DNA of 64,000 nucleotides from a virus: the IMG/VR virus record IMGVR_UViG_3300003323_000307, positions 7,669 to 71,668 of that record. The stretch is one strand, 5' to 3'. Below are positions 14,238-34,675 of this stretch, piece after piece. A program made the translations under genes and the position numbers. The notes under the pieces were generated by a model. That model searched no databases. It had not been told where the DNA came from and saw nothing but the letters and a program-made list of their open reading frames with translations. The stretch's first letter is position 1, and each line of letters begins with the position of its first letter.

Positions 14238-15025
14238 AGGAAGCCCTTAACAATTCGCTTGATGCCGTCTGTGACTTCTGCTGCTATATCTCGTACCCAG
14301 GCTAAGACTTTGTCAAACATATCCGGACCTTCTGATTCATCGTCAGGTAGTGGTTCTGTGAGCTTGGCGATCACAGCAGGATCGCTGTAGACATCCACGC
14401 ACGTTGTACAGTTGGTCTTGCAGGGAGATCCGTCTTCGAGAGGGAACCGGCACCAGAAGGCCAGCTCGAACAGCTCTCTGGGCATGTCTGCCAGGATCTC
14501 CGTCTTGGTCATCTCCTGCAACGGACGTTCGATGGTGATGTTCCTGCGACGGGCGCAGATGTACATCATCCGGGTCCGAGCCTTGATTACTTTGCCGTTG
14601 GGGTACTTGGTGGAAGTGTCACCGACAATGTTCCAGTATGCAAGGCGAGTGATCCAGGGCCTTGCCCGCAGGATTGTTCCGGCCATAGCCATAACAATCT
14701 CGGGGTCACGCATTCTCTGCATATGAGGGGCTGGGGGTAGAACCGCAGCAGAGTCAATGTACTCGTAGTTCGTCAGTCCTTGCTTGTCGAACCAGGAGAG
14801 AACTTTTTCAACTGCCTGCGACTCATAACGCATTCTATGACGGCTAGTGAGGTGGCAGTGGTGAATGAGGACTCGTTCACCAGCAAGGAGGAGTTTGTAA
14901 GTACCGTAAACGGAATCAATACCACCTGAAAGATTAGATAAAACAGTATGAGTCTGGTCAGCGTCATTGAATTCCCGGTTCTTGAGGAGGTATTTTCCTC
15001 CAAGCTCCCACTCATTGTGAGACAT
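14126..15025 (-). CDS. QueC-like PP-loop ATPase
   Basis: SGGIDS PP-loop; PL..MTK.EI; C-terminal Cys cluster WCRFP....PCKTNCTTC. Confidence 0.7.
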   Translation of the reverse strand: MSHNEWELGGKYLLKNREFNDADQTHTVLSNLSGGIDSVYGTYKLLLAGERVLIHHCHLTSRHRMRYESQAVEKVLSWFDKQGLTNYEYIDSAAVLPPAPHMQRMRDPEIVMAMAGTILRARPWITRLAYWNIVGDTSTKYPNGKVIKARTRMMYICARRRNITIERPLQEMTKTEILADMPRELFELAFWCRFPLEDGSPCKTNCTTCVDVYSDPAVIAKLTEPLPDDESEGPDMFDKVLAWVRDIAAEVTDGIKRIVKGFLWAGKTVLSVLLSGLHKAAITVGNTAAALSEVLGSSK

Positions 15026-15223: not shown

Positions 15224-15364
15224 ATTTCACGCTCTCTAAAGGGTTTCTGCACTTCAACCGTATACATTTTCGGTGTGCAGACTTCCTTTAACACTTTACC
15301 GTTTCTCTTCAGGTGTAATGCCGATGTATAGCGGCGAACGGACGCGGCGTGATTGCGTAACCCG

Positions 15365-15438
15365 TGGACCTACGGGGATTCGAACCCCGAACCTACTGCG
15401 TGCAAAACAGTCACTCTTCCAGTTGGAGTTACAGGCCC
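15365..15438 (-). tRNA. tRNA-Ala(UGC)
   Basis: Complete 74-nt cloverleaf: acceptor GGGCCUG/UAGGUCC with G3-U70, D-arm ACUC/GAGU, anticodon loop UUUGCAC, T-arm CGGGG UUCGAAU CCCCG. CCA is not encoded. Confidence 0.92.
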
Positions 15439-20390: not shown

Positions 20391-20823
20391 ACCAATCCCT
20401 TTGAGCTTTCTTCCTACACTCACTACATCTGCGGTTACGACGAGTCTCAGCTAACTTGTGGATACCCTTTTTGCAGTATTCATATTCTCTACCTGCATTA
20501 GAGGGAGCCCGGCCCCGGGCGTACATATCCTGTAGATTCTCAGCTTGTGTGCCCAGCTCCAAATGACTAGGGTTCACACACGGGGGGTTGTCACAACGGT
20601 GACGGACAACTAGCCCTTCGGGTATATTTCCAAAATGTAGTACCCAAGAAAATCTATGAGCTTGCCATATAAAGCCTCCAGCTCCTCCCTCCGAAATTCG
20701 ACCATACCCTCTACTATTACGACAAGCTAACCATACCCAGCAATCATCCTCACCTTGTATATCTACTTTCTCCCAAAACCTAGCCTCTGTAGGTTTATTC
20801 TGGCTTCCTTTAGGTCTCCCCAT
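20365..20823 (-). CDS. HNH homing endonuclease inserted between the UDG-like and polymerase genes
   Basis: RFWEKV..CWVW..GYG..AHRFSW..VVRHRCDNPPCVNPSHL. Confidence 0.9.
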   Translation of the reverse strand: MGRPKGSQNKPTEARFWEKVDIQGEDDCWVWLACRNSRGYGRISEGGAGGFIWQAHRFSWVLHFGNIPEGLVVRHRCDNPPCVNPSHLELGTQAENLQDMYARGRAPSNAGREYEYCKKGIHKLAETRRNRRCSECRKKAQRDWYARKNLRG

Positions 20824-21469
20824 CTAGCTCCCCCAACCATTGAGAGAAAATCTCTACAGCCCGGTTGACTTCGTCCTCAGTGGCTTCAAAATAGCCCGAC
20901 CAAACTTGAGGATCATCAAGATAACCAGGCTCGCCATTATGGCCCACCCATTCCCATGGAACGTAGTGACCCTCTTTCGGAGGAAATTCACGCTTGCCAT
21001 TGATCAGCTCCCCGACTCGCTGAACGTGGTCGTACAGCACGTCAAATTGGTCATACCGTTTGTTAAGGGTTTCCTTGGGGCCGATGTACACCACAGAGGG
21101 GTGATAGGTCGGCAGAACCCAGGTTTCCAGATCCTCTGACCACGTCAGAGAACCATTGTAATCATCCAGAGTTTTCTTGGTGTTGACGAACTTCTTGAGG
21201 GCGTTGGAACCCAGGAGAACCACTACCTTGTGGTTCCCCTGACGAACCAGCTCATGCAGTTCTTCTATCTGAGCTGCCCTCATGTTCCCTGTGAAGGTGA
21301 GAGAATACTGAGCTACGTTCAGGAACTTGAGGTTGGCGTCTGTAAAGCAGCCGTTGAGAAGCTGTAGAGCCCTGCGGTCGAAACCTTCACCAGCATGATT
21401 GACGTTGGTCCGAATCTCGACCACAGCAACTTCAGAGTTCCGTGGGACCTTCTTGCTCAGCTTGTGCAT
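20810..21469 (-). CDS. uracil-DNA-glycosylase-like domain, probably the N-terminal part of a UDG-PolA fusion
   Basis: VVVLLGSNA and LPTYHPS motifs of the family-4 UDG fold. Confidence 0.65.
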   Translation of the reverse strand: MHKLSKKVPRNSEVAVVEIRTNVNHAGEGFDRRALQLLNGCFTDANLKFLNVAQYSLTFTGNMRAAQIEELHELVRQGNHKVVVLLGSNALKKFVNTKKTLDDYNGSLTWSEDLETWVLPTYHPSVVYIGPKETLNKRYDQFDVLYDHVQRVGELINGKREFPPKEGHYVPWEWVGHNGEPGYLDDPQVWSGYFEATEDEVNRAVEIFSQWLGELDGET

Positions 21470-21815
21470 TGTCCATCTTCCACTTCACAAGCTCCGCGAG
21501 GAGCACATTGAAACAAATAGCCATTGCATGATCTTCTGAGGTATCTCCGCCAAAGTACTGCATCATATGGCGGAACATACTCTCCTTAGCACGGTCCAGC
21601 TCAGCCGGGGAATTCCCCAACTCGAAGTTTCTCTTTGAGTATTTGATACTCCCTCGTGTGAGAAGCTGGGCCAAGCGGGTCAGGAACTGATCTTCATAAG
21701 GGACGCCTTCATGCCACAAGAGCATGAAGTTATCCTTGGTAGCCCCGTCAGCATCTCGGACCATGCCACTCGCGTACTCTTCGCGGGTGCCGGAGTCCTT
21801 GGTCTCGAAAGTCAT
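21432..21815 (-). CDS. dATP/dGTP diphosphohydrolase-like (DUF5664-type) protein
   Basis: TKDSG.REEY.SGMVRD, G..KY..RNF, EDH....FN. Confidence 0.7.
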   Translation of the reverse strand: MTFETKDSGTREEYASGMVRDADGATKDNFMLLWHEGVPYEDQFLTRLAQLLTRGSIKYSKRNFELGNSPAELDRAKESMFRHMMQYFGGDTSEDHAMAICFNVLLAELVKWKMDNAQAEQEGPTEL

Positions 21816-22252
21816 CTTAAATAGTCCAATGCCCTCTTCAAATACTCCGGAGAATCTTGAAATAGCCCTAAAGCTCTATTACAACTTCCACATAGGAGCC
21901 CTCTAACACAGCTACCACATGAAGATATTCCAGAGCAACAACTGTGATCATGATCTATAGTTAGCTCCGTTGAAGCTTGGCATATAGCACAAAGTCCTTG
22001 CTGAGCGGCCACCATCTCTTGATATTTAGCTAAACTTAGTCCGTAGCGTCCAGTTATCAGGTTTCTCTTAAATGCCTCTTTACCCTTAGGACTCTCCCTA
22101 TATCGTTTCGAGCGCTCTCTATCTGCCTCAGCTTTACAGGGACCACAGTACCGTTTTCTGTAAGGTCTTTCCTTACCGCATCTAGGGCAATTAGGGTCTC
22201 TAGGGGGCAACTCTACCGAACTCCGTAAAATAGGCCATGGCTTGTGGTGCAA
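21812..22252 (-). CDS. endonuclease VII-family nuclease (start uncertain)
   Basis: YGLS...QQGLCAIC..IDHDH..VRGLLC..CN..LG. Confidence 0.85.
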   Translation of the reverse strand: MHHKPWPILRSSVELPPRDPNCPRCGKERPYRKRYCGPCKAEADRERSKRYRESPKGKEAFKRNLITGRYGLSLAKYQEMVAAQQGLCAICQASTELTIDHDHSCCSGISSCGSCVRGLLCGSCNRALGLFQDSPEYLKRALDYLR

Positions 22253-22901
22253 CTTCCGATGCCAGGGTATCTATTTGTTTGGCAACTTGCTCTATCTCCC
22301 ATAGAGGAAATGTTGGGGTTTTAGAATTTTCATGAGCCCATCTGAGCGACAAAAAATTCATAAGAGACCTGAGATTAAAGTTTACATAGAATGAGGTGTA
22401 GATGCTAAATGGCAGATGATCCCGGGCGACCTCACGGGCAATGCCATCTTGCAGAGCTTCCTGGTACATAGACCAGCCAAAGAGTGCTGTTCGTTTATGG
22501 CGTTCTTGCTCCCTCTGTATTTGTGAAGGAGTTCCTAGTTCAAACGTGTACGCGCCGGGTTTGCCAATTTGCCGTAGTGGACGCTGGGACCCTGGTACAT
22601 AGAACACCGGCTCAAGTTCGCGGTACCTTCCTGAGGTTTCGTTATATGAGGCGATCCTGTGCCTGAAGAACTCTCGGGCAACGAATATAGGGCAAGAAAC
22701 TTTAAACTGCAACACTGGTGATTCAAATGGAGAGCCATGACGATCTCGCATAAGCATACGTAAGAGGCCATTATTACTAGCTTCTGTACCCGTAGACCCA
22801 GAACTCACACGGGCAAAACGAACTATAGACTCATCTCCACCCATACTGTCAACAAGCTCAACATCCATGTCGGACTTGAACGTCACTTCAGACATGGTCA
22901 C
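22200..22901 (-). CDS. thyX: flavin-dependent thymidylate synthase
   Basis: HGSPFE, signature RHRIASYNETSGRY, NLRSLMNFLSLR, EI. Confidence 0.93.
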   Translation of the reverse strand: MTMSEVTFKSDMDVELVDSMGGDESIVRFARVSSGSTGTEASNNGLLRMLMRDRHGSPFESPVLQFKVSCPIFVAREFFRHRIASYNETSGRYRELEPVFYVPGSQRPLRQIGKPGAYTFELGTPSQIQREQERHKRTALFGWSMYQEALQDGIAREVARDHLPFSIYTSFYVNFNLRSLMNFLSLRWAHENSKTPTFPLWEIEQVAKQIDTLASEVAPQAMAYFTEFGRVAP

Positions 22902-23125
22902 CGCTCCCGAAGCTGGCGACCAGTCATTTGCCCTTCGATGAAGAACCTCGACAGAGCTAGCTGATCTTTCACGTACCGATCCATGTTCTTCATGAAGAAC
23001 TTGAAGTGTCCTGACTTCATCTCCATAAGGATCTGGTACTCAGGGTCAAGCACCTGGTTCTTCTGAGCCAGCTTGACAGAGTACTCAGCAAGGCTGGGAT
23101 TATACGTAATTACTACACGTGGCAT
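22898..23125 (-). CDS. hypothetical protein
   Basis: Packed ORF with a GTGA overlap. Confidence 0.5.
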   Translation of the reverse strand: MPRVVITYNPSLAEYSVKLAQKNQVLDPEYQILMEMKSGHFKFFMKNMDRYVKDQLALSRFFIEGQMTGRQLRER

Positions 23126-23657
23126 CCAGTAGACTCCTCATGTAACGGTCCATCACACGGTCATGCTCTTCTTTGGCTTTATTCGCAGCCTCAATAGGGA
23201 GGGACATGAGATCCCCCACAGAGTTGTAACAGCGCTCCACTGCGTAGCAGGTCTCCGGAAGCTTGATATCCAGGATGTTACCCCACACAGCGTGAGCCAA
23301 AACCCGGTAGTACCAGCGCCTCCAATGGGCGTTGTGCCCCTGTGTGAGACCCGCATAGCCGTGGCACAGCTCGTGCAGCAAAGTCTTGTAGAACTGGGTA
23401 GAGGGGGATCGGTACGAAGGTGTCATCCAGATGTGAAACTTCCGGTTGACCTCTCCGAAGTCCGACATGGTCATACCCAGGGAATCAGATTCAGCAAGGG
23501 AGATCTGGTGGCTCTTGGGGAAGTCGCTCCAGTCACTGCTTACTGTGGCAAGCTCCGGGGTGTACCGCCTGTGAACGCTTTCGGCAAAGCAAGCCTTCAC
23601 AAACAGGTGGTACTGCTGGAAGTCTTCTTCACTCAGAAGACTGAGGTTGTACTTCAC
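23100..23657 (-). CDS. SprT-like zinc metalloprotease
   Basis: TLLHELCH...GHNAHW. Confidence 0.65.
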   Translation of the reverse strand: MKYNLSLLSEEDFQQYHLFVKACFAESVHRRYTPELATVSSDWSDFPKSHQISLAESDSLGMTMSDFGEVNRKFHIWMTPSYRSPSTQFYKTLLHELCHGYAGLTQGHNAHWRRWYYRVLAHAVWGNILDIKLPETCYAVERCYNSVGDLMSLPIEAANKAKEEHDRVMDRYMRSLLDATCSNYV

Positions 23658-23815
23658 GTTCCCAGCCTGTCTCTTGTTTTACCCATTTGGCGATACCATA
23701 GAAGCCATGAAACATGACAACAGCCCCGAGCCCAGCACTCTTGTGCTTCTTCTTCAGGGTGTCCAACTGTTCCTGGAATACCCACTCCAAGTATTCCTCG
23801 CGGGTCATCATCTTT

Positions 23816-24211
23816 CTATTCCCCAGCCCCATGGACATAAGCGAGGCAGTGTGCAAGGGCAGAGATGGCATCGCGCCCCTTACGGTGCATGTCTTTACGT
23901 TCTTCCTTCAGAAGTTCTTCAGCCTGGCTCACAAAGGCTAGCCTGGCCTGTGGAGCTACTACACTACACCCTGCACCATACTTGAACAAGCCCAGAACTT
24001 CAATAGTCTTCTTACCCTCTCGGGACAGGTTCCCCGCACTGTGATAGTTCTCTACTATGAGTTCATCCGGGCGGTATAGCTTAAGCCATACTGTAAAAAT
24101 CCCAAAGGCCGCCTCAGGAAAATCCACCTGATGAACTCTGAAGAACTCTGTATCACTATCGTAATAAGCTACCCCAATAGTTTCCCCGGGGTCTACCGCT
24201 ATGACCCTCAT
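23816..24211 (-). CDS. RuvC-like Holliday junction resolvase
   Basis: MRVIAVDPGETIGVA, IVEN, DA.SA. Confidence 0.7.
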   Translation of the reverse strand: MRVIAVDPGETIGVAYYDSDTEFFRVHQVDFPEAAFGIFTVWLKLYRPDELIVENYHSAGNLSREGKKTIEVLGLFKYGAGCSVVAPQARLAFVSQAEELLKEERKDMHRKGRDAISALAHCLAYVHGAGE

Positions 24212-24424
24212 AGATCCTTGAACCTCTCCCGGACCATGTCTGTAAATACTGTGTCTGCCATGTGCTGATCTATACGTTCGAAGAAGTCTACAATAACTTC
24301 TTTATCAAAACCCGCACCTTTGACTATCTCGTAGGATAGAGTTTCCAGATTTGTCCAAGATGCGACGATATTTGCCTTAAGATTTTCATTCATAAAAGCC
24401 CTAAAATCTATGCTATACTTATAT

Positions 24425-24888
24425 ATTGCCGGAGGAGAACGTGATCTGAAAGCGGCGCCAATTCTGTACTAGTCAGAGGCGGCAATGCGAGTAGGTGATC
24501 TGAAGCCGAAGGAAGCCGTCTGGCGGGAAATTCTTCGTTCGGGGAGGATATTCTTAAGGGCGCTGGTGAACGAAGTAGGTTGCTCCCGAGGCAATCGAAA
24601 AGGAATCCAGGGAATGGGCTAACACTCTAAGTGGAGCCTGAGTAGGACCAAACGGAATGTGAAGCGGGACCCGAAAGGGAAGCTGAACAGAAAACTGAAA
24701 GCTAACCTGAAGGGGAAGCTGAAAGCCGAAAGGTGAGTAAGTGGAACTGGATGGGGAGCAAGTAAGTGGACTAAGTAGGTGGAACAAGTAGGAGAACGTG
24801 GATCTGAACAGATGGACTGAAAGGGTGAAACGGCAGGTGTTAGCCCTGAACCATTTCTGGACCAAAGGCCCCCGCATTGCGGGGGCCT
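24425..24888 (+). ncRNA. candidate large structured ncRNA (alternatively a structured replication origin)
   Basis: Extended -10 TGcTATACT at 24411-24419; long-range helices; many GNRA and short hairpins; terminal hairpin at 24866-24888; no credible ORF. Confidence 0.55.
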
Positions 24889-24896
24889 CAGTCATG

Positions 24897-25349
24897 TCAG
24901 AACTTGTACTCGGTGACTACAGCCTTGACGCCAGTCCAGTTGTCTTCGTCATCCGGGTCATCTTCCTTGCGGGCATAACGCTCCACCTCGGTGACAGCTA
25001 GGCCCTCCAGACCTTCGAAGAGTTCCGTAAGGTCAGCAGCGTATTCGGCTAGGGAGTCATACTCCGTGTCCTTTTCCGGAAGTTCGACCCCAGCGGAGTC
25101 AGCGAACTTCTTCAGACGCCATGCTGCCTTCTCGGAGAGCCAGAAGGAATCACCGTAGAGGTTACGCTTATACGGCTCCCCATCGATGTCCACGGCATCC
25201 TCGTCCGTGACCTTCCAGACAGGTTGGACATAGGGGGTCTTCTTGACGGTAGACTCACCTGAGGCAAACTTGACGAATCGGACTTCCCACTGACCCGCTG
25301 CTAGCGGCTGCTGAGTGGAACCTGACAGGTCTGGGACAACAAACCCCAT
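24897..25349 (-). CDS. ssDNA-binding protein (DUF669-like)
   Basis: Acidic, OB-fold-like sequence; FWLSEKAAWRLKKF; follows the AAA ATPase. Confidence 0.65.
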   Translation of the reverse strand: MGFVVPDLSGSTQQPLAAGQWEVRFVKFASGESTVKKTPYVQPVWKVTDEDAVDIDGEPYKRNLYGDSFWLSEKAAWRLKKFADSAGVELPEKDTEYDSLAEYAADLTELFEGLEGLAVTEVERYARKEDDPDDEDNWTGVKAVVTEYKF

Positions 25350-25351
25350 TG

Positions 25352-26158
25352 TTAACTACCCTTCTTCATCATTCGAATGATGCCCTCTAGATCCGGATTG
25401 TCCAGGTGCAGAGGCACCTGCTTACCAGTCTTGGGCTGCCGAAGCTTCGGACCCTCCACCCTTCGCGGCGGGGTGAAGTAAATCTCCCGATCTTCGGAGT
25501 TCTTTTTGCGGTTCATATAACCGACGTGATTCACAGTCAGAAGGATCTGATTCCGAATACCCTGCGGCAATGCCAGCCGGACATTCGTGATTTCCTCGTC
25601 CTTCTCCTCAAGAGTGTGACCTGTGAAGATGGTATGGATACCATACTCACAGAGGCTCTTGGCATCCCGGACGAACTTCGTCATCTCCTTCTGTGCTTCG
25701 AAGTAGAGCTGACGTGCGTCCTTTGCTGAGGCCATCTTCCGCTCGATCATGGGGAACAAGAGTTCATAGTAGATCGAGGAGAGGGAGTCGAAACCGTACA
25801 CCTTGTACGGGCTGTTGTCCTTGAGAGCCAGAGCTGTATCCAGATAACCCCGGAGTTCCTGCCAGGTGAGCTGACGGGAGATACCCTCTGTAGGCTGGCC
25901 GTTGGCAACAGCTTCGAGGTACTTGGGGGGCTCAGCGAAGTGAACATCCATATCAAGGATGGACTCACGGCCGATGTCCGTATCGAACAGCAGAACCTGG
26001 TTAGGGTACAGCTTGGCTGCTGAGGCAAGGAAGGTCGTCTTGCCGATGCCCGGGGGAGCGAAGACGACCATGTTGATACCGGTAGCGGCAGCGTCGTCCT
26101 TGACGCTGCGGAACTGGGGGAAGCTAGCTCCCAGAGGAGCCTTCCGCTCGATTGGCAC
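25352..26158 (-). CDS. AAA_24 / Sak4-like ATPase (recombinase)
   Basis: Walker A PPGIGKTT, FDSLS, IFTGH. Confidence 0.8.
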   Translation of the reverse strand: MPIERKAPLGASFPQFRSVKDDAAATGINMVVFAPPGIGKTTFLASAAKLYPNQVLLFDTDIGRESILDMDVHFAEPPKYLEAVANGQPTEGISRQLTWQELRGYLDTALALKDNSPYKVYGFDSLSSIYYELLFPMIERKMASAKDARQLYFEAQKEMTKFVRDAKSLCEYGIHTIFTGHTLEEKDEEITNVRLALPQGIRNQILLTVNHVGYMNRKKNSEDREIYFTPPRRVEGPKLRQPKTGKQVPLHLDNPDLEGIIRMMKKGS

Positions 26159-27257
26159 GATATTCCTCCAGTGTCCTCTGGAGATCCTCCAGGGAAGCTA
26201 TGTTGGTGGGGGTGATGCCCCTGACGGCTTGCTGTGTCCCGTATGTACCCACTTGGTACCGCTGTGAAACCAGGAGTTCTACATCGTCGTCACGATCCAT
26301 GGCGGTGCAGAGGTCAGAGACGAGGCAGCGGTCACAGGCAGAGCGGTTAGGGATGATGCCTGGTTCACTACCACTAAAGGCTTCAGCGACCACCTGATCC
26401 AGAACATCGCGCTCCCAGTTGACAAGTTCAACCAAGGTGGGACGGAAGATCTCGCGCACGAAGAAACGAGAGTCTCCAGACTGTTCACGGTCATGCAGCA
26501 TGGTGATGTAGTCGGTGTACTGTACTGGGTCATGATTGCCGTAGTTCAGTGCTTTCATGAAGGACTTGTAAGTGACAGAAGCGTTCTTGTCCACTGAGAG
26601 CTTACCGCTCTTCAAGACCCTGGGCTCTGTGATCAGCCTCTTCATGATGATGTTATAAACCGTACCTGCTGGTTTCTGCCCTGTCAATACCGTGAACGCC
26701 CAGTTGTAGCCTATGTGCTGATTACTGCGTTCGTACTGGTTGAAGTCAGGTGTACGGCCAGAGGTCTTGTTCTCGATGAGGTAGAACTGAGACTCTGTTT
26801 CCAGGTCTACGGCGATGTGGTCAAAGGTGCCTACGAAGTTGACGTCGTCTGAAATCCTGATATTGAAGGGAACCTCAGAAGCTACTATTCGAAGACCTAA
26901 ATCTTTATAGGGGTTTTCGGTTCCATAATGATCAAAATACTGGTGTACAAGGCTTCGTGCCAGGTTAACACCAGATTCAAACTCTTCCATTTCAGAGTCC
27001 CACGGGAGGACTCCCACAGCTTCCTCATAAGCCATCCGTCGATCTGCCCGCTCAACGTTGACAAATTCTTCGAAAGCTTCATACGGGTCGTCCCCATTAC
27101 TCTGCGCTTCGATTGCAGCATGTACAGCCGAGCCAATCGTGAGGTAAATCTTGGGGGAGACTTTGTGCCTCAGAGACTGTCGGTTCGCTGAACTGATATC
27201 CCACGCCCGGCGACATGTCAAGTAGCTGTTGATTTCGCTGACACTCAAATTGATCAT
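26124..27257 (-). CDS. Cas4/RecB-like PD-(D/E)xK exonuclease
   Basis: S.SEINSYLTCRR, GSAVH, GTFD...ENKTS, CDRC....C. Confidence 0.85.
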   Translation of the reverse strand: MINLSVSEINSYLTCRRAWDISSANRQSLRHKVSPKIYLTIGSAVHAAIEAQSNGDDPYEAFEEFVNVERADRRMAYEEAVGVLPWDSEMEEFESGVNLARSLVHQYFDHYGTENPYKDLGLRIVASEVPFNIRISDDVNFVGTFDHIAVDLETESQFYLIENKTSGRTPDFNQYERSNQHIGYNWAFTVLTGQKPAGTVYNIIMKRLITEPRVLKSGKLSVDKNASVTYKSFMKALNYGNHDPVQYTDYITMLHDREQSGDSRFFVREIFRPTLVELVNWERDVLDQVVAEAFSGSEPGIIPNRSACDRCLVSDLCTAMDRDDDVELLVSQRYQVGTYGTQQAVRGITPTNIASLEDLQRTLEEYRANRAEGSSGS

Positions 27258-27465
27258 ACAGCTCCCCTATAGCTGTCATAAATTGGACAAATTCTGCAAT
27301 CTTTAACTGCTTTTGAATCCAGTCCCAGTAATCCATCAGGGGTTCAGAGCTGCTTCCAGTTTGGTCTTGAGAGCATCCATGCGGGTTATCTCCAGCCTGG
27401 TCATATCTACCCAGGTGTAGGCAGCTACAGCTTCCTCAAGAAGCTCCAGCTCCTCATCTGTGAAA

Positions 27466-27852
27466 TCAAGGGCACACAACTCGGGTTATCCCGCTTTCTT
27501 CAATGAACCGGCTGCAATCCGAGCACGGGGCGAATGTCACATAAATGGTGCAGTCTTCTACTCTCATCCCCCTCCGATGTGCGTCGATGATTGCGTTCAC
27601 TTCTGCATGGAAACCCTTGCAGTTGCTGTACGAACCATAAGCAGGAAGTTCATCATATGTCAAGGCCCCCCGAGGACAACCACCATCCGAACAGTTCACC
27701 TCACCCGCTTGAGTGCCGTTATACCCAAGCGAAATGACATGGTGGGTCTCATCCATGATGCACGCGCCTACTTGACGCCTTCGGCAAGCAGCACGGAGCT
27801 TGGCTGTCTCAGCCATAGCCAAGCCATACTGGTCCCATGAGAGACGGCTCAC
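27466..27852 (-). CDS. dCMP deaminase
   Basis: CRRRQVGA, GYNG, HAEVNA, PCSDC. Confidence 0.9.
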   Translation of the reverse strand: MSRLSWDQYGLAMAETAKLRAACRRRQVGACIMDETHHVISLGYNGTQAGEVNCSDGGCPRGALTYDELPAYGSYSNCKGFHAEVNAIIDAHRRGMRVEDCTIYVTFAPCSDCSRFIEESGITRVVCP

Positions 27853-28034
27853 TCACCACCCCGCTGCACGAACCCTGCCACAAACTCTTGGGCATTCTCT
27901 TCAAGCACGTCATCTATCTCATCAAGAATATCCATAGTAGATTCTTCCAGCTCCTCATTACTGAGGTCCTTAGCTTCTACCTCTTCAGCCTCTTCGGTTG
28001 TCCCGGTACTCTTGGTTTTCTGGTCCTGGCCCAT
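27849..28034 (-). CDS. pup: prokaryotic ubiquitin-like protein Pup (phage-encoded)
   Basis: 61 aa starting MGQDQK; acidic N-terminal half; ILDEIDDVLEENAQEFVAGFVQRGGE matches the Pup signature LLDEIDDVLEENAE.FV..YVQKGG(Q/E). Confidence 0.93.
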   Translation of the reverse strand: MGQDQKTKSTGTTEEAEEVEAKDLSNEELEESTMDILDEIDDVLEENAQEFVAGFVQRGGE

Positions 28035-28308
28035 TTGGACCCCAATCTCTTTGATAGCAATAATCACAACCGGAGCACGAGTCAGCTTTTTTCTGGTTGC
28101 ATACCTTATGTACCAATTGTAGATTACCCGGGGAAGAGATTCCGCCATGCGACCGTGGGCGGATGTGATCTATGTTCACGGCGTCGGTAAACAACTGTCT
28201 CTGGCGGATCTGGCGCCCACATATCCCGCACCGGTAGCGTTGGCTTATCCACAACCGCTTTTTCGGGTGTACCCAATTCTTAGGCTTCCATTTCTTCTTG
28301 CGGCTCAT
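27985..28308 (-). CDS. HNH endonuclease (McrA-type)
   Basis: CGICG..NIDHIRPRSHGG..NLQLVHKVCN. Confidence 0.85.
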   Translation of the reverse strand: MSRKKKWKPKNWVHPKKRLWISQRYRCGICGRQIRQRQLFTDAVNIDHIRPRSHGGISSPGNLQLVHKVCNQKKADSCSGCDYCYQRDWGPNGPGPENQEYRDNRRG

Positions 28309-28311
28309 AGA

Positions 28312-29687
28312 TCATTCGTCCCTCGCCCACTTGGCCATAGCTTCCGCAATACCGGAGAAACGGCCATCCAGGACTTGCTTGATGGCCATGTCTACTGACC
28401 CTTTGGCTCGGACGTGGTGCACCTGCACGACGCGTCCTTGCCCCCTCCTGCACACCCGTTTAATGGTTTGCTCGATATCGGCAGGTAGTTCGGAGTGTTC
28501 GAGGAAGACGACGTCTGTAGCTTCTGTGAGGCTGATGCCTTCTTTGAGGCTTGGGATGGTCGCGACAAGAACTTGCGGACCATCACTAGCTCGCCATTCT
28601 GCAATGACAGATTCACGCCTTCCTGGGAGAACGGAACCTGTGACAAGTACCGCTTGGCTGCCCAGAGCATCAGCGATCGCGCCAGCCGAATCTTTATACC
28701 ATACGTAAACCACCACTTTAGATCGGCGATCTGTGAGGAAATCTTTGAGCCAATCGATTTTCGGGTTAGCTTTCGTAGGCGGTACAGTCGCAATCTGACG
28801 CTGTTTGACATAGAGAGCACCAGAGCCTTTGAGAAATTCAGTATGTGCCAGATCTTCATGCTCCAGTACATAATCCTTCTTCGCTTTCTTGATCATCTTG
28901 ACTACCGAGGCAGGCAGCTCCACCTGGTATTCATGCTCCTGATATTCCAGGCTGGCTAGCTGCGGGATCTCAGCCACCGTACGACGCATGCTGAACTGGG
29001 CAAGCTCTTGCTTGAACTGCTCTACGTAGTCTTTGCGTATGTTGCCGACTGTGGTTGACCAGGGATTTGTATAGACCACACACCGGTCGTTGACAAATTT
29101 CCAGTACGAGGAGTATTTCTTTTTATCGTAAAGATGAAAATACGGGAAGAAGTCTCCGCCATCACGCACAAACGGGGTACCCGTAAGAACCCAGATGGGT
29201 GTTTCCCGGTTACTACTAGCAGATAGTCTCGTTTTAAAGGTATGCTTCGTCCACGCAGAATTACGGCCACGGAGTCTGTGCCCCTCATCGAAGATGTACG
29301 CTGACCACTTACGGCCTACAAGTAGTCCCCCGTACGTATAGTCTCGACCTTTTTTCGCCGCCCAGTTGTGGTAAGACGTGAGTATGAAATCCGCGTTGCT
29401 CGAAAGTGCTTCGCTACGAAGTTCAGTACCGGATCCGTCAGCCGATACCACAGTGGCATCCGGGCAGAAGGCATTGATCTCCTTTACGGTATTAGGTATA
29501 AGGTACGCTGGGCATGTCCATAGAACTGGGTTTCCAGTCCTCTGGATAAGTTCCCAACCTGCCATAATACTAGGTCCAGTTTTCCCAACTAAACTCCGGG
29601 CTCATCAAAAAGCCCGGCAAACCTCCCTGAGTTAAGTAGGAAGTCTCTAGACTCTACCTGGTAGTCATCCAGAATTTTTTCTGGCAT
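28312..29687 (-). CDS. SNF2-family helicase with Walker A interrupted by a stop and frame change at 29587-29594
   Basis: 5' piece MPEKILDDYQ...FDEPGV* (29687-29589); 3' frame GKT..., DEGH, LTGTP, EGISL, Q...RVCRRGQ. Confidence 0.85.
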
Positions 29688-30111
29688 AGTAGTTTCTCCA
29701 AGCCTCATTTTTGCAGATACGACATTGAGTATACCCATCAGCTCTTGGAGTACTATTTGCTTTGGTGAGAAGGTGGCCCTTTAGACACCGGAATCTTCGG
29801 GGTCTACGTTGGCAATTTTCCTTTGGGGTTACCAAGTCTAAGTGTCTCGGGTTTACACAGTCCCTATATCTACATTTGTGATCCAATTGCATATTATTAG
29901 GCTTGGGTCCATTAAATTGTTCCCAAGAAAATACGTGAGCCTTAACCGATTTCCTGTGATGTACTGCAAAAACTCCATAACCTTGTTGCACTGACCCTAA
30001 CCAGTGCCAACAGCCTTCAGTCTTCTGGACTTTACTCCAGAATCTATCTACAGGGTCGGTTAATATAAATCTACCTGAACCATCCCTTGTTGTCACTGAC
30101 CCTTCTTCCAT
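29665..30111 (-). CDS. HNH homing endonuclease
   Basis: RFWSKV..CWHW..GYG..LDHKC...CVNPRHL; CLKGH..CRIC. Confidence 0.9.
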   Translation of the reverse strand: MEEGSVTTRDGSGRFILTDPVDRFWSKVQKTEGCWHWLGSVQQGYGVFAVHHRKSVKAHVFSWEQFNGPKPNNMQLDHKCRYRDCVNPRHLDLVTPKENCQRRPRRFRCLKGHLLTKANSTPRADGYTQCRICKNEAWRNYYARKNSG

Positions 30112-30389
30112 CGGACTATCTTCACCAGGTAGGAGGGAGAGCCACAGGTTTTACATACCGCAGAATCTTTGTCGAAAATACCCTCTCCATAAGCTTCTCG
30201 AAGAGCGTTTCCATCCGCCTCGCAGAAGTACCAGTCCGCAGGCCAGCATTCGCACGACCAGTTATAGGTGGCTTTCCAAGTAGCTTCCTTGTCACACCCA
30301 CCAATAGCCATGCACGGTTCGGCCTCATCCTCCGAGAACTCCACCCAGGTTAGGTCCAGAGGATTTGTTGTGTGAGTAGGGGTAGTCAC
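30093..30389 (-). CDS. hypothetical Cys-rich protein
   Basis: GTGA-coupled ORF. Confidence 0.5.
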   Translation of the reverse strand: MTTPTHTTNPLDLTWVEFSEDEAEPCMAIGGCDKEATWKATYNWSCECWPADWYFCEADGNALREAYGEGIFDKDSAVCKTCGSPSYLVKIVRWKKGQ

Positions 30390-31459
30390 TTGTTCTTCTG
30401 CCTCTCTACATAGCGCCGCTGGTTTTCACGTCGGCAGACCTTGCACCGGAGAGCCCCGTCAAGGCCCACCTTCTCCTTCAGATGACCCTTAGGGCAATGT
30501 GTGGTGGGCTTACGTCCACCCTTACGGGCATGGCCTGTCTTCTTACGTTCGTTGACTCCCTGTGCGGCAGCAGACTTGCAAGTGCTGCATGACCGGTACC
30601 AGTACCCACCTTCACGACGAGCTACTACCGTATTTTCCGGGGTCCGCTCATGGTTCTTGGTGCAAGTACCATGGTAAGGATCCACCACAATGTGAGCCTG
30701 GTTCACAGCGCGCTGGATCATCATATTGCCATGGGCAGATGGATGGTCCGTGTTCCCGTAGTGGCGCCCGATATCCGTGGGGGAGTAACCCTCTGCAAAA
30801 TACATATACAGCACTGTACGGTGCTGTTCTGTGAGCTGGGAGAGGACTTCCTTGAAGTGCTGGTCTTCTACAAAGAGGTCTTCAAAGGACTCCCGGAGTT
30901 CCAGTTTGGGGTTGTCCGACCAATGGCGGTTACTGGACTCCACCCCCGCCTCTGAGTAAGTCATCAGCTCCAGTGACATGGTCGAATAGTGGTTCCAGTC
31001 CATACGCCCGTCCGGGCGGTAGACCATGTGATCCACCCGGCCTTCCCGGATGTCCTTGAGGATCTTCTGAGCACTGGAGTGATTGATACCCAGAGCATCC
31101 GAGACTGTCTTAGGAGTCGGCCAGACACCTTCACGGAGACCCTTGGTCTCTTCCAGATAAGCCTTGACCTTCTCCACGGTTGCCTGGTTTGTCCGAAGCC
31201 CGTCCCGGGACTTCTTGGGCTTACCGAAGGAGTATTCACCGTTCCTGTGAAGATACTTTTCGGCTGACATCTTGGCCCGACGGAGAACCTTGAGCTTGGG
31301 GGTTACCCCTGCCTGCACATCCCGCCAAGCCTGAATAAGGCCCTCCTGGAATGCGTCGTTGTACATCTCCGGTAGATGCTTGCGCCACTTAGCCAAGGAT
31401 ACCGTGAGGTAGGATACTACCTCATTGTGAATTTCGTCGTACGTTGTGTAATCACTCAT
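30386..31459 (-). CDS. RNA polymerase sigma-factor-like protein with two C-terminal Zn-finger modules
   Basis: Region 2-like DAFQEGLIQAW; region 3-like WPTPKTVSDALGI; region 4-like LSQLTEQHRTVLYMYFAEGYSPTDIG; start MSDYTT after a GGAGG RBS. Confidence 0.75.
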   Translation of the reverse strand: MSDYTTYDEIHNEVVSYLTVSLAKWRKHLPEMYNDAFQEGLIQAWRDVQAGVTPKLKVLRRAKMSAEKYLHRNGEYSFGKPKKSRDGLRTNQATVEKVKAYLEETKGLREGVWPTPKTVSDALGINHSSAQKILKDIREGRVDHMVYRPDGRMDWNHYSTMSLELMTYSEAGVESSNRHWSDNPKLELRESFEDLFVEDQHFKEVLSQLTEQHRTVLYMYFAEGYSPTDIGRHYGNTDHPSAHGNMMIQRAVNQAHIVVDPYHGTCTKNHERTPENTVVARREGGYWYRSCSTCKSAAAQGVNERKKTGHARKGGRKPTTHCPKGHLKEKVGLDGALRCKVCRRENQRRYVERQKNK

Positions 31460-31510
31460 ATTGCCCTCCAACACGAGTGTGCCCAGGCTAACACCTGGGC
31501 AAACATAAGA

Positions 31511-31552
31511 CAATCCCCCTGTCAGGACTTGAGTCAACCGACAGGGGGATTG
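31511..31552. terminator. hairpin (terminator or regulatory site) upstream of the sigma gene
   Basis: CAATCCCCCTGTC...GACAGGGGGATTG inverted repeat. Confidence 0.5.
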
Positions 31553-31782
31553 GTCAGGGGTGACGGGTCAGGTTCTCCAATTTGACCTTGGACATCTGCA
31601 TATAGACACCTGAGCCATTCAGACGTCCGGGGTCATCGTAGTCCAAGGCGCTGTAGATGATCCCCATCTTTTCATTGCAGACCCAGCACAGTTCGTCCCC
31701 GGTGCCGTTCCCATAGACATCGCAGCAACGGAAGAATCTGTACGTCGGGTTACCTGACATATTGTGATATTTCGCCCAGTGC

Positions 31783-31992
31783 TCAAATAGAGTTGGCTGA
31801 GATGGAGGGCCTGGCATTGATAAGTTCCCTCTCATCATTTGCGATGATCCACCCCTGAGCATGAAGCATGACGCTATGCTTGGAGTAGTGGTGTGCACAG
31901 AGATCCAGTTGTCCATGAGTTACATGGTTGACAGATACCCAGGCTTCAGAGTAGCAGTTGTCGCATCGAACAGTCTTGTCACGCATTGTCAT
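31783..31992 (-). CDS. small actinobacterial-type Zn-binding protein
   Basis: CDNC..AWV..LDLCAHH. Confidence 0.55.
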   Translation of the reverse strand: MTMRDKTVRCDNCYSEAWVSVNHVTHGQLDLCAHHYSKHSVMLHAQGWIIANDERELINARPSISANSI

Positions 31993-32389
31993 CAGTCCTT
32001 ATCAAGCCGTTGGTGTAGATGAGCTGACTCTTTTCACGCACGTATCTGTGTGAATACTCAGGTATCACTATTAACCAGAAAGCTATCTGCTCTTCCCTGG
32101 TCATATTGAATCGTTCGTGGTTGGGTTTGGGAGTCATCTCATGTTTCCTGCTTTCTAAAAACCTCCGGTCTTGCTGGGCTTAACGAGTGTGATCCAATCG
32201 TGATTACCGTCCTGGGACTCTGTGCAATAACGGTGAGAGTTTATAAGAAACTCATCGCAGTAAAAGCATTTGTCCACAGGCTTCAGATTCCATTCCGTTT
32301 CTTCGAGAATCTCGCCATCGAAAGTGAGGAATTTACGGATCATCGGTATTCTCCTTTGGTCACTAGGTTTTCCCAGTGCCTTTATTTTA

Positions 32390-34675
32390 TCAGGAGATGT
32401 CTTGCGTGTTTTCTGGTACAATCCTCAAGCTCTTACCATCTTCCTCAACCCAGCCATCTCGGAATGCCTGGCTGAGAGCCGCCTCAAAGTTGCTACGGTC
32501 TTTCTGTGGAAGACGGCGACGTACATTCCCCTTTGTAGTAGGACCCTCCAGAAGGTACTTCACAATGAGCTTGGCTACTCTTGTGTTGTCCTTTTCCGCG
32601 TTGGTCTTCTTGTCATGCATCTGAAGCTCTCGGGAGATCTTCTCCTGAGCCTGAGCCTCTTGCTTCTTCCACTGCTCTGTGCGGTAGAACTGCCATGCCT
32701 TGTCATGGACTGTGAGGGAGGTCTCATACATCAGCTTAGCAAGGTCCCAGTCATCTGTATCGACATGGGTCCTGCCCTCGAAGAGGGCAAGCACACCAGC
32801 CAGCTTGCAGAGCTGTAGTGGCTCGTGTGAGCGGATCAGTTCTGCCTCCACCTGCCCTGTCACCTGCAACCAGACCCGACGCCTCAGTTCATTGCGAATG
32901 GTTTGGGAGAAGGTGATATTACCTTGGGGATTATAGAGGAGACGGGGGAGTACATGGTCCGGGGGTTCTACGGCCTCCTCTGGGACACTGGAGTCATTGG
33001 CAGAGACCCATAGAATACGTTGTGGTAGACCCAGGCCAACCAATTCAAGGATAGGGGTCACGGTATGGAGCTGAAAACCCATGACAACGCCCAGGTTATA
33101 CGATCCGTCCTCTACCTGACGAGAGGTTTCCTTGGAGGCGTTGGCCATACCCATGGTCTCACCCTTCCAGGCGGAACACAGGGAGGTGGCCAGAGTGGCC
33201 CCCTTCCTCTCCATGATGGTTGCTACCTGCTGCCCTTCTTCAGCAGAAAAGAACGCATTATGGCGAGCCTGCTTGCGAATCTGTACAGATTTTCCGTCCG
33301 GACCATCTTCCTTGACGTTGTCCATAAAGGCTTCGATGATGCCCTCACCCGTACCGATACCAAGCCCATCCTTGAAAGGCTCTACCTCAAATGTGGAACG
33401 GAGCCTTCGCGGGACTGTGAGAATGTCCCGGGACACTGCTGCTGAGTGGCCCTTACCCCCACCGGAGGCAGCGAGAGAGACGACAATCATGTTGAGTGGA
33501 GCAAGCCCAATGCCATTGTCAAGCTTGACGTTGTGGTCCAGCATCGCCACGAATCGGGCCATGACCTGTCCAAGTACAGCATCCGCACTAGCACAGCGGG
33601 AGTGGGCGTGCTGTCGCAGAGTGCGGAGAGATTCCCGGGATTCCCAGAACTCATCTGGAAGGCACGGAACGGTGTTGGCTTTCTTTGATACCGTGATCGT
33701 GTCATCTGTGCCCTGGCTCTTGAACTTGGGCAGAGGAGGGGGTGTGCCGTCCTTGGATTTCGACAACACCCGGCTGACCTCATTCGTTATACGAGACTCA
33801 TTGTGGTTGTACTTCTGTGCAAATGGTGATTTGTACAGGTACCCAGCAATGTTATCAGGTGAGACACCATGAGAGTCAAGTGCACGAATTACGGAGTAAA
33901 TAGCCTCTGAACGCTGTTTGCGAGGGGCTCCGGACATCAGCCACTGCTTGTGGATGGGGGCCAGGTCAGCAGGGAGATCATCCCAGGACACATCCGTTTG
34001 CGGCATACACACGTCTACCGTATTGGATGTGTACCGCCACATGTCGTGTGACGGTTCGGGCAAGGTACCTTCGATCTCGTCCAGATTGTATACAGCTGTG
34101 GCATCCGTATATACAATACCAGGCTTCCAGTTATTACGGCCCGGTTTTGCATTCACACCGAAGGGGAGCCGCAGAAGCTGGCCAGCATCCCAGCCGGAAT
34201 GATCAGCGTCCTGAATCCACTCAGAAATACTGGTGTTGTACTTCTGAATCAGTTCCTTGTTACGGAGGAAATCTGACAGAACCCAGTAGACATGAAATCT
34301 TCCGGGTGAAGATTCCACCACGATAGAAGGTTTCATGGGAACCTGCGTCAGCAGGTTCTCCAAGGTCATAGGGATATCTGTGTCAATATCCGCCCAGAGT
34401 ACCCAAGTACCTGAGATGGAAGTCCGCTTTCTGTCCAAGTCATTCCAGAACAAAGCGGGGCAAAACCAGACGTTGGAGTCTGCTACAGATTCCAGTGACT
34501 GAAGGTCAGAGTCCTCGGTGCCGAGATCACAGAAGACGTTGCGGTATACATCTCTAGGGGTGATGCACCCATAATAGTTCTTGGTGGCCTCATTACTTGT
34601 GGCCCAGATAATGTCAAGAAAATACTCGGTGGCCTCCGTACCGTTCCACGGAGGATTGTAGGTACGGGCGGTCAT
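32390..34675 (-). CDS. primase-helicase (RepB-like primase N-terminus, P-loop C-terminus)
   Basis: LWADID, VESSPGRFHVYW, LLRLP; ASGGGKG; TGEGI. Confidence 0.8.
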   Translation of the reverse strand: MTARTYNPPWNGTEATEYFLDIIWATSNEATKNYYGCITPRDVYRNVFCDLGTEDSDLQSLESVADSNVWFCPALFWNDLDRKRTSISGTWVLWADIDTDIPMTLENLLTQVPMKPSIVVESSPGRFHVYWVLSDFLRNKELIQKYNTSISEWIQDADHSGWDAGQLLRLPFGVNAKPGRNNWKPGIVYTDATAVYNLDEIEGTLPEPSHDMWRYTSNTVDVCMPQTDVSWDDLPADLAPIHKQWLMSGAPRKQRSEAIYSVIRALDSHGVSPDNIAGYLYKSPFAQKYNHNESRITNEVSRVLSKSKDGTPPPLPKFKSQGTDDTITVSKKANTVPCLPDEFWESRESLRTLRQHAHSRCASADAVLGQVMARFVAMLDHNVKLDNGIGLAPLNMIVVSLAASGGGKGHSAAVSRDILTVPRRLRSTFEVEPFKDGLGIGTGEGIIEAFMDNVKEDGPDGKSVQIRKQARHNAFFSAEEGQQVATIMERKGATLATSLCSAWKGETMGMANASKETSRQVEDGSYNLGVVMGFQLHTVTPILELVGLGLPQRILWVSANDSSVPEEAVEPPDHVLPRLLYNPQGNITFSQTIRNELRRRVWLQVTGQVEAELIRSHEPLQLCKLAGVLALFEGRTHVDTDDWDLAKLMYETSLTVHDKAWQFYRTEQWKKQEAQAQEKISRELQMHDKKTNAEKDNTRVAKLIVKYLLEGPTTKGNVRRRLPQKDRSNFEAALSQAFRDGWVEEDGKSLRIVPENTQDIS

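What the first reader, a model, noticed from the sequence alone, without database searches (positions are those of the whole stretch)
27849..28034. Phage-encoded Pup ending in ligation-ready GGE
Seen: a 61-aa protein hidden in a longer ORF call, with a near-consensus Pup C-terminal half, embedded in the replication operon between an HNH gene and the dCMP deaminase. Known: PafA ligates Pup-GGE to lysines without Dop deamidation, and Mpa/ARC binds the central helix and threads the disordered N-terminus. Inference: the phage Pup either boosts or redirects pupylation, or acts as a decoy saturating PafA/Mpa. Its N-terminus lacks the Gly run of mycobacterial Pup, which might alter degradation.
Basis: partly seen in the sequence, partly recalled or inferred. 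Interest (0 to 1): 0.87.

Follow-up and report, generated by a model that had tools for sequence, protein, structure and literature searches.

The report
Phage-encoded Pup protein tag
An uncultured tailed phage carries its own intact copy of Pup, the bacterial ubiquitin-like tag that marks proteins for destruction, but none of the enzymes that attach or read it, so the virus probably feeds its tag into its host's tagging machinery.

Summary
Confirmed. Window 27849-28034 (- strand) encodes a 61-aa Pup: Pfam PF05639 at 60.1 bits (cut-off 27) and TIGR03687 at 59.2 bits (cut-off 41.45). It ends exactly in GGE. Gene callers hid it inside a 99-aa ORF.

It lies between an HNH gene and a dCMP deaminase gene in the replication module of a real tailed phage. 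This is an IMG/VR record of 71.7 kb, about 85% complete. The record has no PafA/Dop or proteasome gene.

- **Relatives.** Five related phage contigs also carry pup, at two alternative positions. Three of the six copies end in GGE and three in GGQ.
- **Selection.** Synonymous sites are saturated (pS 0.75-1.0) while pN is 0.18-0.30. The gene's GC matches the phage. It is an old, selected resident.
- **Wider survey.** All 37 pup-bearing IMG/VR contigs found end in GG[EQ]. None has Mpa, Dop, PrcB, PrcA or PafA in the flanks. 74-79 of 80 cellular loci do.

Best reading (about 0.5): the host's PafA conjugates the phage tag. A decoy role is not excluded.

Host and expression are unknown. I found no paper on phage Pup. 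This scan has noted phage Pups before on other DNA. My idea that Arg at position -4 is a phage adaptation failed its control.

The parts
27849..28034 (-). pup gene: 61 aa plus TGA stop (27849-27851)
   Evidence: PF05639 at 60.1 bits against a cut-off of 27. TIGR03687 at 59.2 bits against 41.45. All homologues begin at the equivalent M-x-Q-E/D-Q.
27963..28034 (-). Residues 1-24: variable, acidic and Lys-bearing N-terminal half (K6, K8, K22)
   Evidence: Low conservation in alignment A1. Both differences from the near-identical strain fall here (G2D, A16V).
27852..27962 (-). Residues 25-61: conserved half that in studied Pups folds on Mpa, PafA and Dop
   Evidence: Gap-free alignment to Pup chains of 3m91, 3m9d, 7px9, 7oy3 and 4bjr. 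It holds all invariant and near-invariant A1 columns.
27906..27935 (-). Residues 34-43 (MDILDEIDDV), equivalent of enzyme-bound helix 1
   Evidence: Mapped by distance from the C-terminus onto helix 1 (D44-V53 of a 71-aa Pup) described in PMC8599861 (passages read). The mapping is my inference.
27873..27896 (-). Residues 47-54 (NAQEFVAG), equivalent of enzyme-bound helix 2
   Evidence: Same mapping onto helix 2 (N57-S64) of PMC8599861. N47 and F51 are invariant in A1.
27861..27863 (-). Arg58 at position -4, where Actinomycetota Pups have Lys
   Evidence: 0 of 69 sampled Pups from the Actinomycetota-type phylum lack Lys here. 30 of 30 in a second phylum have Arg. The four syntenic relatives with DNA have Lys.
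27852..27860 (-). C-terminal Gly-Gly-Glu, the ligation end
   Evidence: Read directly from the sequence. The role of the terminal Glu is taken from the review PMC8223512 (passages).
27849..27852 (-). GTGA overlap: the pup stop TGA shares bases with the GTG start of the dCMP deaminase gene
   Evidence: Read. Confirmed in the printed upstream sequence.
28040..28043 (-). GGGG run 5 nt upstream of the ATG, a weak Shine-Dalgarno-like site
   Evidence: Relatives L002, L122 and L137 have clearer GGAG/GAGGAG sites at the same start. The 99-aa start at 28148 has none.
27849..28148 (-). 99-aa ORF as called by gene finders; its first 38 codons are an over-extension
   Evidence: It overlaps the HNH gene in another frame by 164 nt. 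No homologue carries the extension except the near-identical strain P0001.
27985..28308 (-). HNH endonuclease gene; its last 50 nt overlap the start of pup
   Evidence: PF01844 at 48.2 bits. In relative L130 the homologous HNH gene (70% aa) lies on the other side of pup.
27466..27852 (-). dCMP/cytidine deaminase gene, coupled downstream of pup
   Evidence: PF00383 at 87.6 bits.
28312..29565 (-). SNF2-family helicase gene, upstream member of the same gene string
   Evidence: PF00176 at 53.3 bits and PF00271 at 39.4 bits. 72% identical to the L130 homologue that directly precedes pup there.
26124..27257 (-). PD-(D/E)XK nuclease gene, the marker used to find related phages
   Evidence: PF12705 at 70.7 bits. 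Homologues found in L002, L137 and L130 and in 8 more distant records.
23100..23657 (-). SprT-like metalloprotease gene; in relatives L002, L122 and L137 pup lies just upstream of its homologue
   Evidence: PF10263 at 25.5 bits, just under the 25.6 cut-off. HELCHG motif present. Synteny.

Best explanation
This is a functional phage copy of Pup. It is made early, together with the replication and nucleotide-metabolism genes.

The phage encodes no ligase, depupylase, unfoldase or proteasome. The protein can therefore only act through the host's Pup system.

Most likely the free tag, which already ends in Glu, is taken by the host ligase PafA without the Dop deamidation step. PafA would then attach it to lysines of host proteins, and perhaps phage proteins. 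That would enlarge or redirect the pool of tagged proteins, which Mpa and the proteasome degrade or which change activity.

**Shown:**
- Family membership.
- An intact C-terminus.
- The phage context.
- Absence of the enzymes.
- Long retention under purifying selection.

**Inferred:** binding to PafA and Mpa, conjugation, and any benefit to the phage.
For: **Family membership**
- Pfam and NCBIfam scores are far above their cut-offs.
- Residues 25-61 align without gaps to the Pup segments solved with Mpa, Dop and PafA. 24 of 37 are identical to the M. tuberculosis chain.
- The protein holds all 10 invariant and 7 near-invariant columns of a 22-sequence alignment.

**Phage context without the enzymes**
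- Terminase, portal, major head, tail spike, DNA polymerase and primase are all found.
- There is no PF03136 or PF00227 match in the 71.7-kb record.

**Retention in a phage lineage**
- Five related contigs carry pup in the same kind of replication module.
- pN is 0.18-0.30 against pS 0.75-1.0 in 10 of 10 pairs among the five copies with DNA.
- pup GC is 0.50 and window GC 0.52, against 0.61-0.71 for four cellular Pup loci.

**The ligatable end is always kept**
- 37 of 37 IMG/VR copies end exactly in GG[EQ].
- The five other copies of the window's own lineage also end in GG[EQ].

**Relevant published results**
- Free Pup is rarely seen in M. tuberculosis lysates unless overproduced (PMC5358908, passages). 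Extra tag could therefore matter.
- Lys-to-Arg mutants of M. smegmatis PupE, including K61R, pupylate PanB with similar efficiency (PMC4783102, passages). Arg58 should therefore not block ligation.
Against: - No experiment or transcript supports expression. No RNA run holds the stretch.
- The host is unknown, so the presence of PafA, Mpa or a proteasome in it is only inferred.
- Three of the six lineage copies end in GGQ. Bypassing Dop therefore cannot be the general point of phage Pup.
- Pup is not a core gene. 0 of 8 more distant relatives with the same SNF2-nuclease-AAA_24 core have it, and 5 of those 8 are at least 90% complete.
- Nothing here separates 'is conjugated' from 'only binds'.
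- The phage's own proteins are not lysine-poor (K 5.0% over 48 ORFs). A flood of tag could therefore hit them too.
Confidence: 0.5

Rival explanations
1. Decoy or inhibitor. The abundant free phage Pup occupies the Mpa coiled coils and the PafA/Dop grooves. It thereby protects phage proteins from host pupylation and degradation, rather than tagging anything useful.
For: - The Mpa- and enzyme-binding half is near consensus.
- The phage proteins offer many lysines (K 5.0%), so they would be exposed to host pupylation.
- A review raises the untested idea that actinophages are under pressure from the Pup-proteasome system (PMC13696103, passages).
Against: - A pure blocker does not need a ligatable end, yet 37 of 37 IMG/VR copies keep GG[EQ] at the very terminus.
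- The full N-terminal half, not needed for binding, is kept at normal length (61 aa against 58-78 aa in other phage copies).
Confidence: 0.25
2. Non-degradative or phage-directed use. The tag is put on particular phage or host DNA-metabolism proteins to change their activity, or it works in a host that has PafA but no proteasome.
For: - The gene always sits among replication, repair and nucleotide genes.
- Proteasome-less Actinobacteria use pupylation for regulation, for example ferritin in C. glutamicum.
- DNA-repair proteins are pupylation targets in M. smegmatis. Both points come from the review PMC8223512 (passages).
Against: - No partner gene recurs. A SprT-like neighbour is found in 1 of 37 IMG/VR pup loci, and that one was used to build the model.
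- HNH genes near pup (12 of 40 loci) are no more than expected for such common phage genes.
Confidence: 0.15
3. Passenger gene. A host pup picked up by chance and not used, or an assembly chimera.
For: - Pup is absent from 8 of 8 more distant relatives.
- It sits beside a mobile-type HNH gene.
Against: - Synonymous sites are saturated while the protein is conserved across five copies.
- GC matches the phage.
- The stop overlaps the next gene's start.
- An independent DNA run holds the same HNH-pup-deaminase stretch on one 741-nt contig with 11 differences.
- The closest relatives whose context I could read are phage-borne. 0 of 90 cellular rows fall in its tree group.
Confidence: 0.05

Closest known systems
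Cellular Pup of Actinomycetota (M. tuberculosis Pup; C. glutamicum Pup ending in GGE; Pfam PF05639, NCBIfam TIGR03687; chains in 3m91, 3m9d, 7px9, 7oy3, 4bjr)
   Same: - Same family by both curated models.
- Same length class.
- Same conserved C-terminal half and terminal GGE.
   Different: - It is encoded by a phage, with no Dop, PafA, Mpa or proteasome gene on the record. Cellular pup lies beside them in 74-79 of 80 loci.
- It has Arg instead of Lys at position -4.
- Best identity to a cellular copy found was 64%.
Pup of the second phylum sampled (phylum of the MAG titled Candidatus Methylomirabilota)
   Same: It ends QRGG[EQ]. Arg at -4 is found in 30 of 30 sampled copies.
   Different: - Its N-terminal half is unlike the window's (sequences printed).
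- It is cellular, and the one genome checked has Dop and PafA.
Other phage-borne Pups
   Same: They are lone pup genes ending in GG[EQ], without the enzymes nearby.
   Different: - They form several unrelated lineages. The tree needs at least 2 origins on well-supported branches and 9 by parsimony.
- The window belongs to one lineage, defined by a shared replication module.
Ubiquitin genes carried by viruses of eukaryotes, such as baculovirus v-ubi (recalled, not from any call)
   Same: A virus carries the host's small protein tag but relies on host enzymes. This is an analogy of logic only.
   Different: Pup is unrelated to ubiquitin in sequence and fold, and is ligated by a different chemistry (review PMC8223512).

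Membership tests
Pup (prokaryotic ubiquitin-like protein) | Match to the curated family models above their cut-offs | tested here: met
   PF05639 at 60.1 bits against 27. TIGR03687 at 59.2 bits against 41.45.
Pup (prokaryotic ubiquitin-like protein) | Gly-Gly-Glu or Gly-Gly-Gln at the very C-terminus | tested here: met
   It ends QRGGE, followed by TGA.
Pup (prokaryotic ubiquitin-like protein) | Conserved C-terminal half that forms the Mpa-, PafA- and Dop-bound helices | tested here: met
   Gap-free alignment to solved Pup chains, 24 of 37 identical. All invariant A1 columns are present. This is sequence-level evidence only.
Pup (prokaryotic ubiquitin-like protein) | Small size (about 60-70 aa) with a variable, charged N-terminal half | tested here: met
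   61 aa. The N-terminal 24 residues are variable and acidic. Disorder itself was not measured.
Pup (prokaryotic ubiquitin-like protein) | Lys at position -4 (QKGG motif), described as highly conserved in PMC4783102 | tested here: not met
   Arg58. This is not a defining feature across phyla: 30 of 30 copies in a second phylum have Arg.
Pup-proteasome system locus | pup linked to dop, pafA, mpa/arc and prcBA | tested here: not met
   No PF03136 or PF00227 in the record. tblastn with five enzymes gave no hit in the window.
Pup (prokaryotic ubiquitin-like protein) | Covalent attachment to substrate lysines by PafA and recognition by Mpa | not testable with these tools
   Needs biochemistry. Complex prediction was not run because a pass would rest on likeness to 4bjr and 3m9d.

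The most novel reading that the evidence does not exclude
Phages of Pup-bearing bacteria use a virus-made Pup as a takeover factor. Expressed with the replication genes, the ready-to-ligate tag floods the host ligase. The host proteome, including defence or repair proteins, is then mass-tagged and fed to the proteasome, freeing amino acids for virion synthesis. This would be the bacterial counterpart of ubiquitin hijacking by eukaryotic viruses. The lineage found here, with sister copies ending in GGE or GGQ, would be a natural experiment on the need for Dop.
Probability: 0.3. Interest if true: 0.85.

Novelty: new variant of a known kind. Interest (0 to 1): 0.66.

Why it matters
Pupylation is studied almost only as a housekeeping and stress system of Actinobacteria, and as a drug target in M. 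tuberculosis.

A virus-encoded tag that depends wholly on host enzymes would show that phages tap into this system. It would give an easy biochemical handle, because the 61-aa peptide can be tested with purified PafA, Dop and Mpa-proteasome. It would also bear on the open question of whether the Pup-proteasome system shapes phage-host conflict.

The lineage described here adds two things:
- Evidence that the gene is kept under selection for a long time.
- Sister copies that differ in the Glu/Gln end and in the Lys/Arg at position -4.

Tried and rejected
**1. Arg at -4 as a phage adaptation (rejected)**
- The idea was that Arg at -4 avoids di-Pup formation at the Lys that PMC4783102 reports as the di-Pup site.
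- Phage copies lacked Lys in 8 of 30 unique sequences.
- Lys was missing in only 1 of 76 unique cellular sequences.
- Lys was missing in 0 of 69 sampled from the first phylum. 70 were fetched and one end was not recognised.
- The control killed the idea. 30 of 30 Pups from the phylum of G411 have Arg. Arg is a lineage trait, not a phage trait.

**2. SprT-like protease as a Pup partner (rejected)**
- It is adjacent in L002, L122 and L137 only.
- An HMM built from four copies finds it in 1 of 37 IMG/VR pup loci, and that one is a training member.
- The window protein's C-terminal NYV is not conserved in the homologues.

**3. HNH plus pup as a mobile cassette (not supported)**
- An HNH gene lies within 3 kb on the same strand in 12 of 40 loci. 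L185 was dropped because my pattern missed its pup.
- That is about what the window's own HNH density predicts.
- The window's HNH has no homologue in 80 cellular Pup loci.

**4. Lysine depletion of the phage proteome (not seen)**
- K is 5.0% and R 5.2% over 48 ORFs.

**5. Host identification (failed)**
- Terminase, head protein and nuclease tblastn hits are all under 60% identity and point to mixed hosts.
- Lysis and tail proteins gave only LysM, SLT and PG-binding domains.

**6. Cultured phages (no match, with a caveat)**
- tblastn of Pup against 50,697 phage records gave no match, even at E 10 with the C-terminal 38 aa.
- BLAST's low-complexity filter was on, so this blank is weak.
- No PHROG family matched the 61-aa protein.

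**7. Expression**
- No RNA holder is listed.

**8. Regulatory signals**
- Promoter and terminator scans were at chance level.

**9. Other family searches on the record**
- No integrase or resolvase.
- No PurZ-type adenylosuccinate synthetase.

**10. Tree tests**
- The AU test on the full tree did not finish in two 288-s runs.
- A reduced 86-row set gave p-AU 0.352 for holding the six syntenic-phage copies together. Monophyly is not rejected and not shown.
- The group was named partly after I had seen the first tree.

**11. Metagenome scan**
- A motif pattern matched 51 stretches, of which only 3 were pup loci.

**12. Tools not run**
- Complex prediction, structure prediction, fold search, the search of protein representatives and the protein-atlas search. 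A pass with PafA or Mpa would rest on likeness to solved complexes and would not separate the rival readings.

**13. Supplements**
- They are closed. S1 Fig of PMC4783102 (Pup alignment) and Supplementary Fig. S4 of PMC5714182 (gene neighbourhoods) were not seen. They may bear on the -4 Lys and on the endonuclease next to pup.

Full report
**Observation**

On the - strand, an ATG at 28034 opens a 61-codon frame that stops at 27849-27851 and ends in QRGGE.
- It matches Pfam PF05639 (Pup) at 60.1 bits against a cut-off of 27.
- It matches NCBIfam TIGR03687 at 59.2 bits against a cut-off of 41.45.
- Residues 25-61 align without gaps to the Pup chains solved with Mpa (3m91, 3m9d, 7px9), Dop (7oy3, 7oxy) and PafA (4bjr).
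- 24 of 37 positions are identical to the M. tuberculosis chain. I counted this by hand from the match line.
- A scan of the whole record finds one Pup match.

**Gene model**

Gene finders called a 99-aa ORF (27849-28148). The database holds the protein in that form (P0047). I read the first 38 codons as an over-extension for three reasons.
- They overlap the HNH gene (27985-28308) in another frame.
- All other Pups start at the equivalent of the internal Met.
- Relatives have GGAG-type ribosome sites at that start. The window has a weaker G run, and the 99-aa start has none.

The pup stop shares bases with the GTG start of the dCMP deaminase gene, giving the overlap GTGA. Promoter and terminator scans of 22000-32500 are at chance level. 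I therefore read pup as one cistron of the long - strand replication gene string.

**What carries it**

The window is 7669-71668 of a 71,668-bp IMG/VR virus record, estimated 85% complete.
- It encodes a large terminase, portal, major head protein, tail spike, DNA polymerase and primase.
- Around pup lie an SNF2 helicase, HNH, dCMP deaminase, PD-(D/E)XK nuclease and AAA_24 ATPase.
- Further along lie a SprT-like protease, ThyX, endonuclease VII, a dATP/dGTP diphosphohydrolase-like domain and a UDG-like protein.
- The record has no match to the Pup-ligase/Dop family or to the proteasome family.
- It has no integrase or resolvase.
- It is far from cultured phages. The best terminase identity is 48%, the best head protein 51% and the best nuclease 26%.

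The host is unknown.

**A phage lineage that keeps pup**

- *Strain-level relative (P0001).* P0001 is 97% identical and sits on a 68.7-kb contig. A DNA run coded X1, recorded as a root metagenome, holds the HNH-pup-deaminase stretch on one 741-nt contig with 11 differences. Two of them lie in pup and reproduce P0001's G2D and A16V.
- *L130.* This 2.4-kb contig has SNF2 (72% aa), pup (GGQ), HNH (70%), deaminase and nuclease. The HNH gene therefore sits on the other side of pup.
- *L002, L137 and L122.* L002 comes from a 98.6-kb viral contig. All three share the nuclease, AAA_24, SprT-like and ThyX genes at 30-60% identity. They carry pup at a second position, just upstream of the SprT-like gene.
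- *Ending.* Three of the six copies end in GGE and three in GGQ.
- *Selection.* Among the five copies with DNA, pS is 0.75-1.0 (saturated) and pN is 0.18-0.30 in all 10 pairs.
- *Composition.* pup GC is 0.50 and GC3 0.52, against 0.52 for the window and 0.61-0.71 for four cellular Pup loci.

Together these results argue for an old resident gene under purifying selection. They argue against a recent capture or a chimera.

Pup is nevertheless accessory. Eight more distant records share the SNF2-nuclease-AAA_24 core at 30-34% nuclease identity. None has a Pup match, and 5 of the 8 are at least 90% complete.

**Wider survey and the contrast with cells**

A single-protein scan of IMG/VR gave 15 pup loci and a profile scan gave 36. 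Together they make 37 distinct IMG/VR contigs.
- All 37 ORFs end exactly in GG[EQ], 21 in E and 16 in Q.
- tblastn with Mpa, Dop, PrcB, PrcA and PafA from two cellular loci gave no hit in any viral locus or in the window. The same queries hit 74, 78, 79, 78 and 78 of 80 cellular loci.
- 0 of 5 whole viral records tested have the ligase family.
- In five cellular genomes, Dop and PafA lie on the pup contig. One example is G275.

**Phylogeny**

The tree has 155 rows and 72 columns, so resolution is poor. It puts the window in a group of 19 rows with SH-aLRT 83.
- The group holds no cellular row out of 90.
- Six of its rows are phage-borne by context: window, P0001, L002, L006, L122 and L130.
- The other 13 rows have unknown context.
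- The best cellular identity found among 401 genomes of one phylum is 64%. That phylum is Actinomycetota, because it contains a genome whose Pup is identical to Nocardia copies.
- Holding the six syntenic-phage copies together is not rejected, p-AU 0.352.
- Phage Pups as a whole need several origins.

**Feature comparison**

The window protein holds every invariant and near-invariant column of alignment A1. By distance from the C-terminus, residues 34-43 and 47-54 correspond to the two helices Pup forms on Dop and PafA (PMC8599861, passages).

Position -4 is Arg, where Actinomycetota have Lys. In M. smegmatis that Lys is the di-Pup site, and Lys-to-Arg mutants still pupylate PanB (PMC4783102, passages).

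I tested whether Arg is a phage adaptation, and the idea failed.
- 0 of 69 sampled Pups in the first phylum lack Lys.
- 30 of 30 in a second phylum have Arg.
- Within the window's own lineage the four other copies with DNA keep Lys.

So Arg58 is a derived, function-compatible change of unknown meaning.

**Mechanism**

The phage has no enzyme of the system, so the protein can only act through host PafA, Dop and Mpa.

I favour conjugation by host PafA (about 0.5) on three grounds:
- The ligatable end is always kept.
- The protein is full length.
- Free Pup appears scarce in cells (PMC5358908).

A decoy role (about 0.25) fits the conserved binding half and the lysine-rich phage proteome. It does not explain the universal GG[EQ] end.

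A targeted, non-degradative role among DNA-metabolism proteins is possible (about 0.15). No recurrent partner gene supports it.

**Novelty and limits**

Nine full-text searches found no paper on a phage- or virus-encoded Pup. The nearest is a review proposing that the Pup-proteasome system pressures actinophages (PMC13696103).

This scan has noted phage Pups on other DNA several times. My own count of 37 contigs agrees with those notes.

Limits of this report:
- No host.
- No expression data.
- No biochemistry.
- A short protein, which gives weak trees.

Noticed in passing
window 15364-15438 (-): A tRNA-Ala (TGC) gene is the only RNA gene found by ARAGORN and by Rfam at gathering thresholds. 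No tmRNA was found, although another first-stage note on this window proposed a mini-tmRNA.
   Followed up: partly
window 21812-22252 (-); cellular loci such as L089:6388-6762: The phage endonuclease VII (PF02945, 81.6 bits) is 31-33% identical to a gene that lies directly downstream of pup in 33 of 80 cellular Pup loci. The hits printed are Streptomyces loci. PMC5714182 mentions such His-Me finger genes in actinobacterial Pup loci (passage).
   Followed up: partly
window 20365-20823, 27985-28308, 29665-30111, 30386-31537 (all -): Four HNH-type endonuclease genes lie within 11 kb of the replication module. Their families are HNH_3, HNH, HNH_3 and a PHROG HNH match that also has a weak sigma-70 region 4-like hit. 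In relative L130 the HNH next to pup is on the opposite side.
   Followed up: partly
window 21432-21815 (-) and 14126-15025 (-): There is a dATP/dGTP diphosphohydrolase N-terminal domain (PF18909, 33.7 bits) and a weak QueC-like match (22.8 bits against a cut-off of 22). Both hint at nucleotide-pool or base-modification functions. No PurZ-type adenylosuccinate synthetase is in the record.
   Followed up: partly
L122:1-1119 (-): The closest pup-bearing relative contig ends in a strong amidase-signature gene (PF01425, 302 bits) downstream of ThyX. Whether it is phage or host DNA is unknown.
   Followed up: no
L003, L007, L010-L016 (IMG/VR loci): A separate, well-supported group of nine viral contigs (SH-aLRT 96) carries 58-59-aa Pups ending QRGGE, with their own conserved neighbours. 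Arg at -4 matches the second phylum sampled, which may hint at their hosts.
   Followed up: no
window 1565-3037 (+) and 3039-3929 (+): Two adjacent tail-region proteins carry LysM domains. The first also has SLT transglycosylase and peptidoglycan-binding domains, next to tape-measure-like PHROG matches.
   Followed up: no
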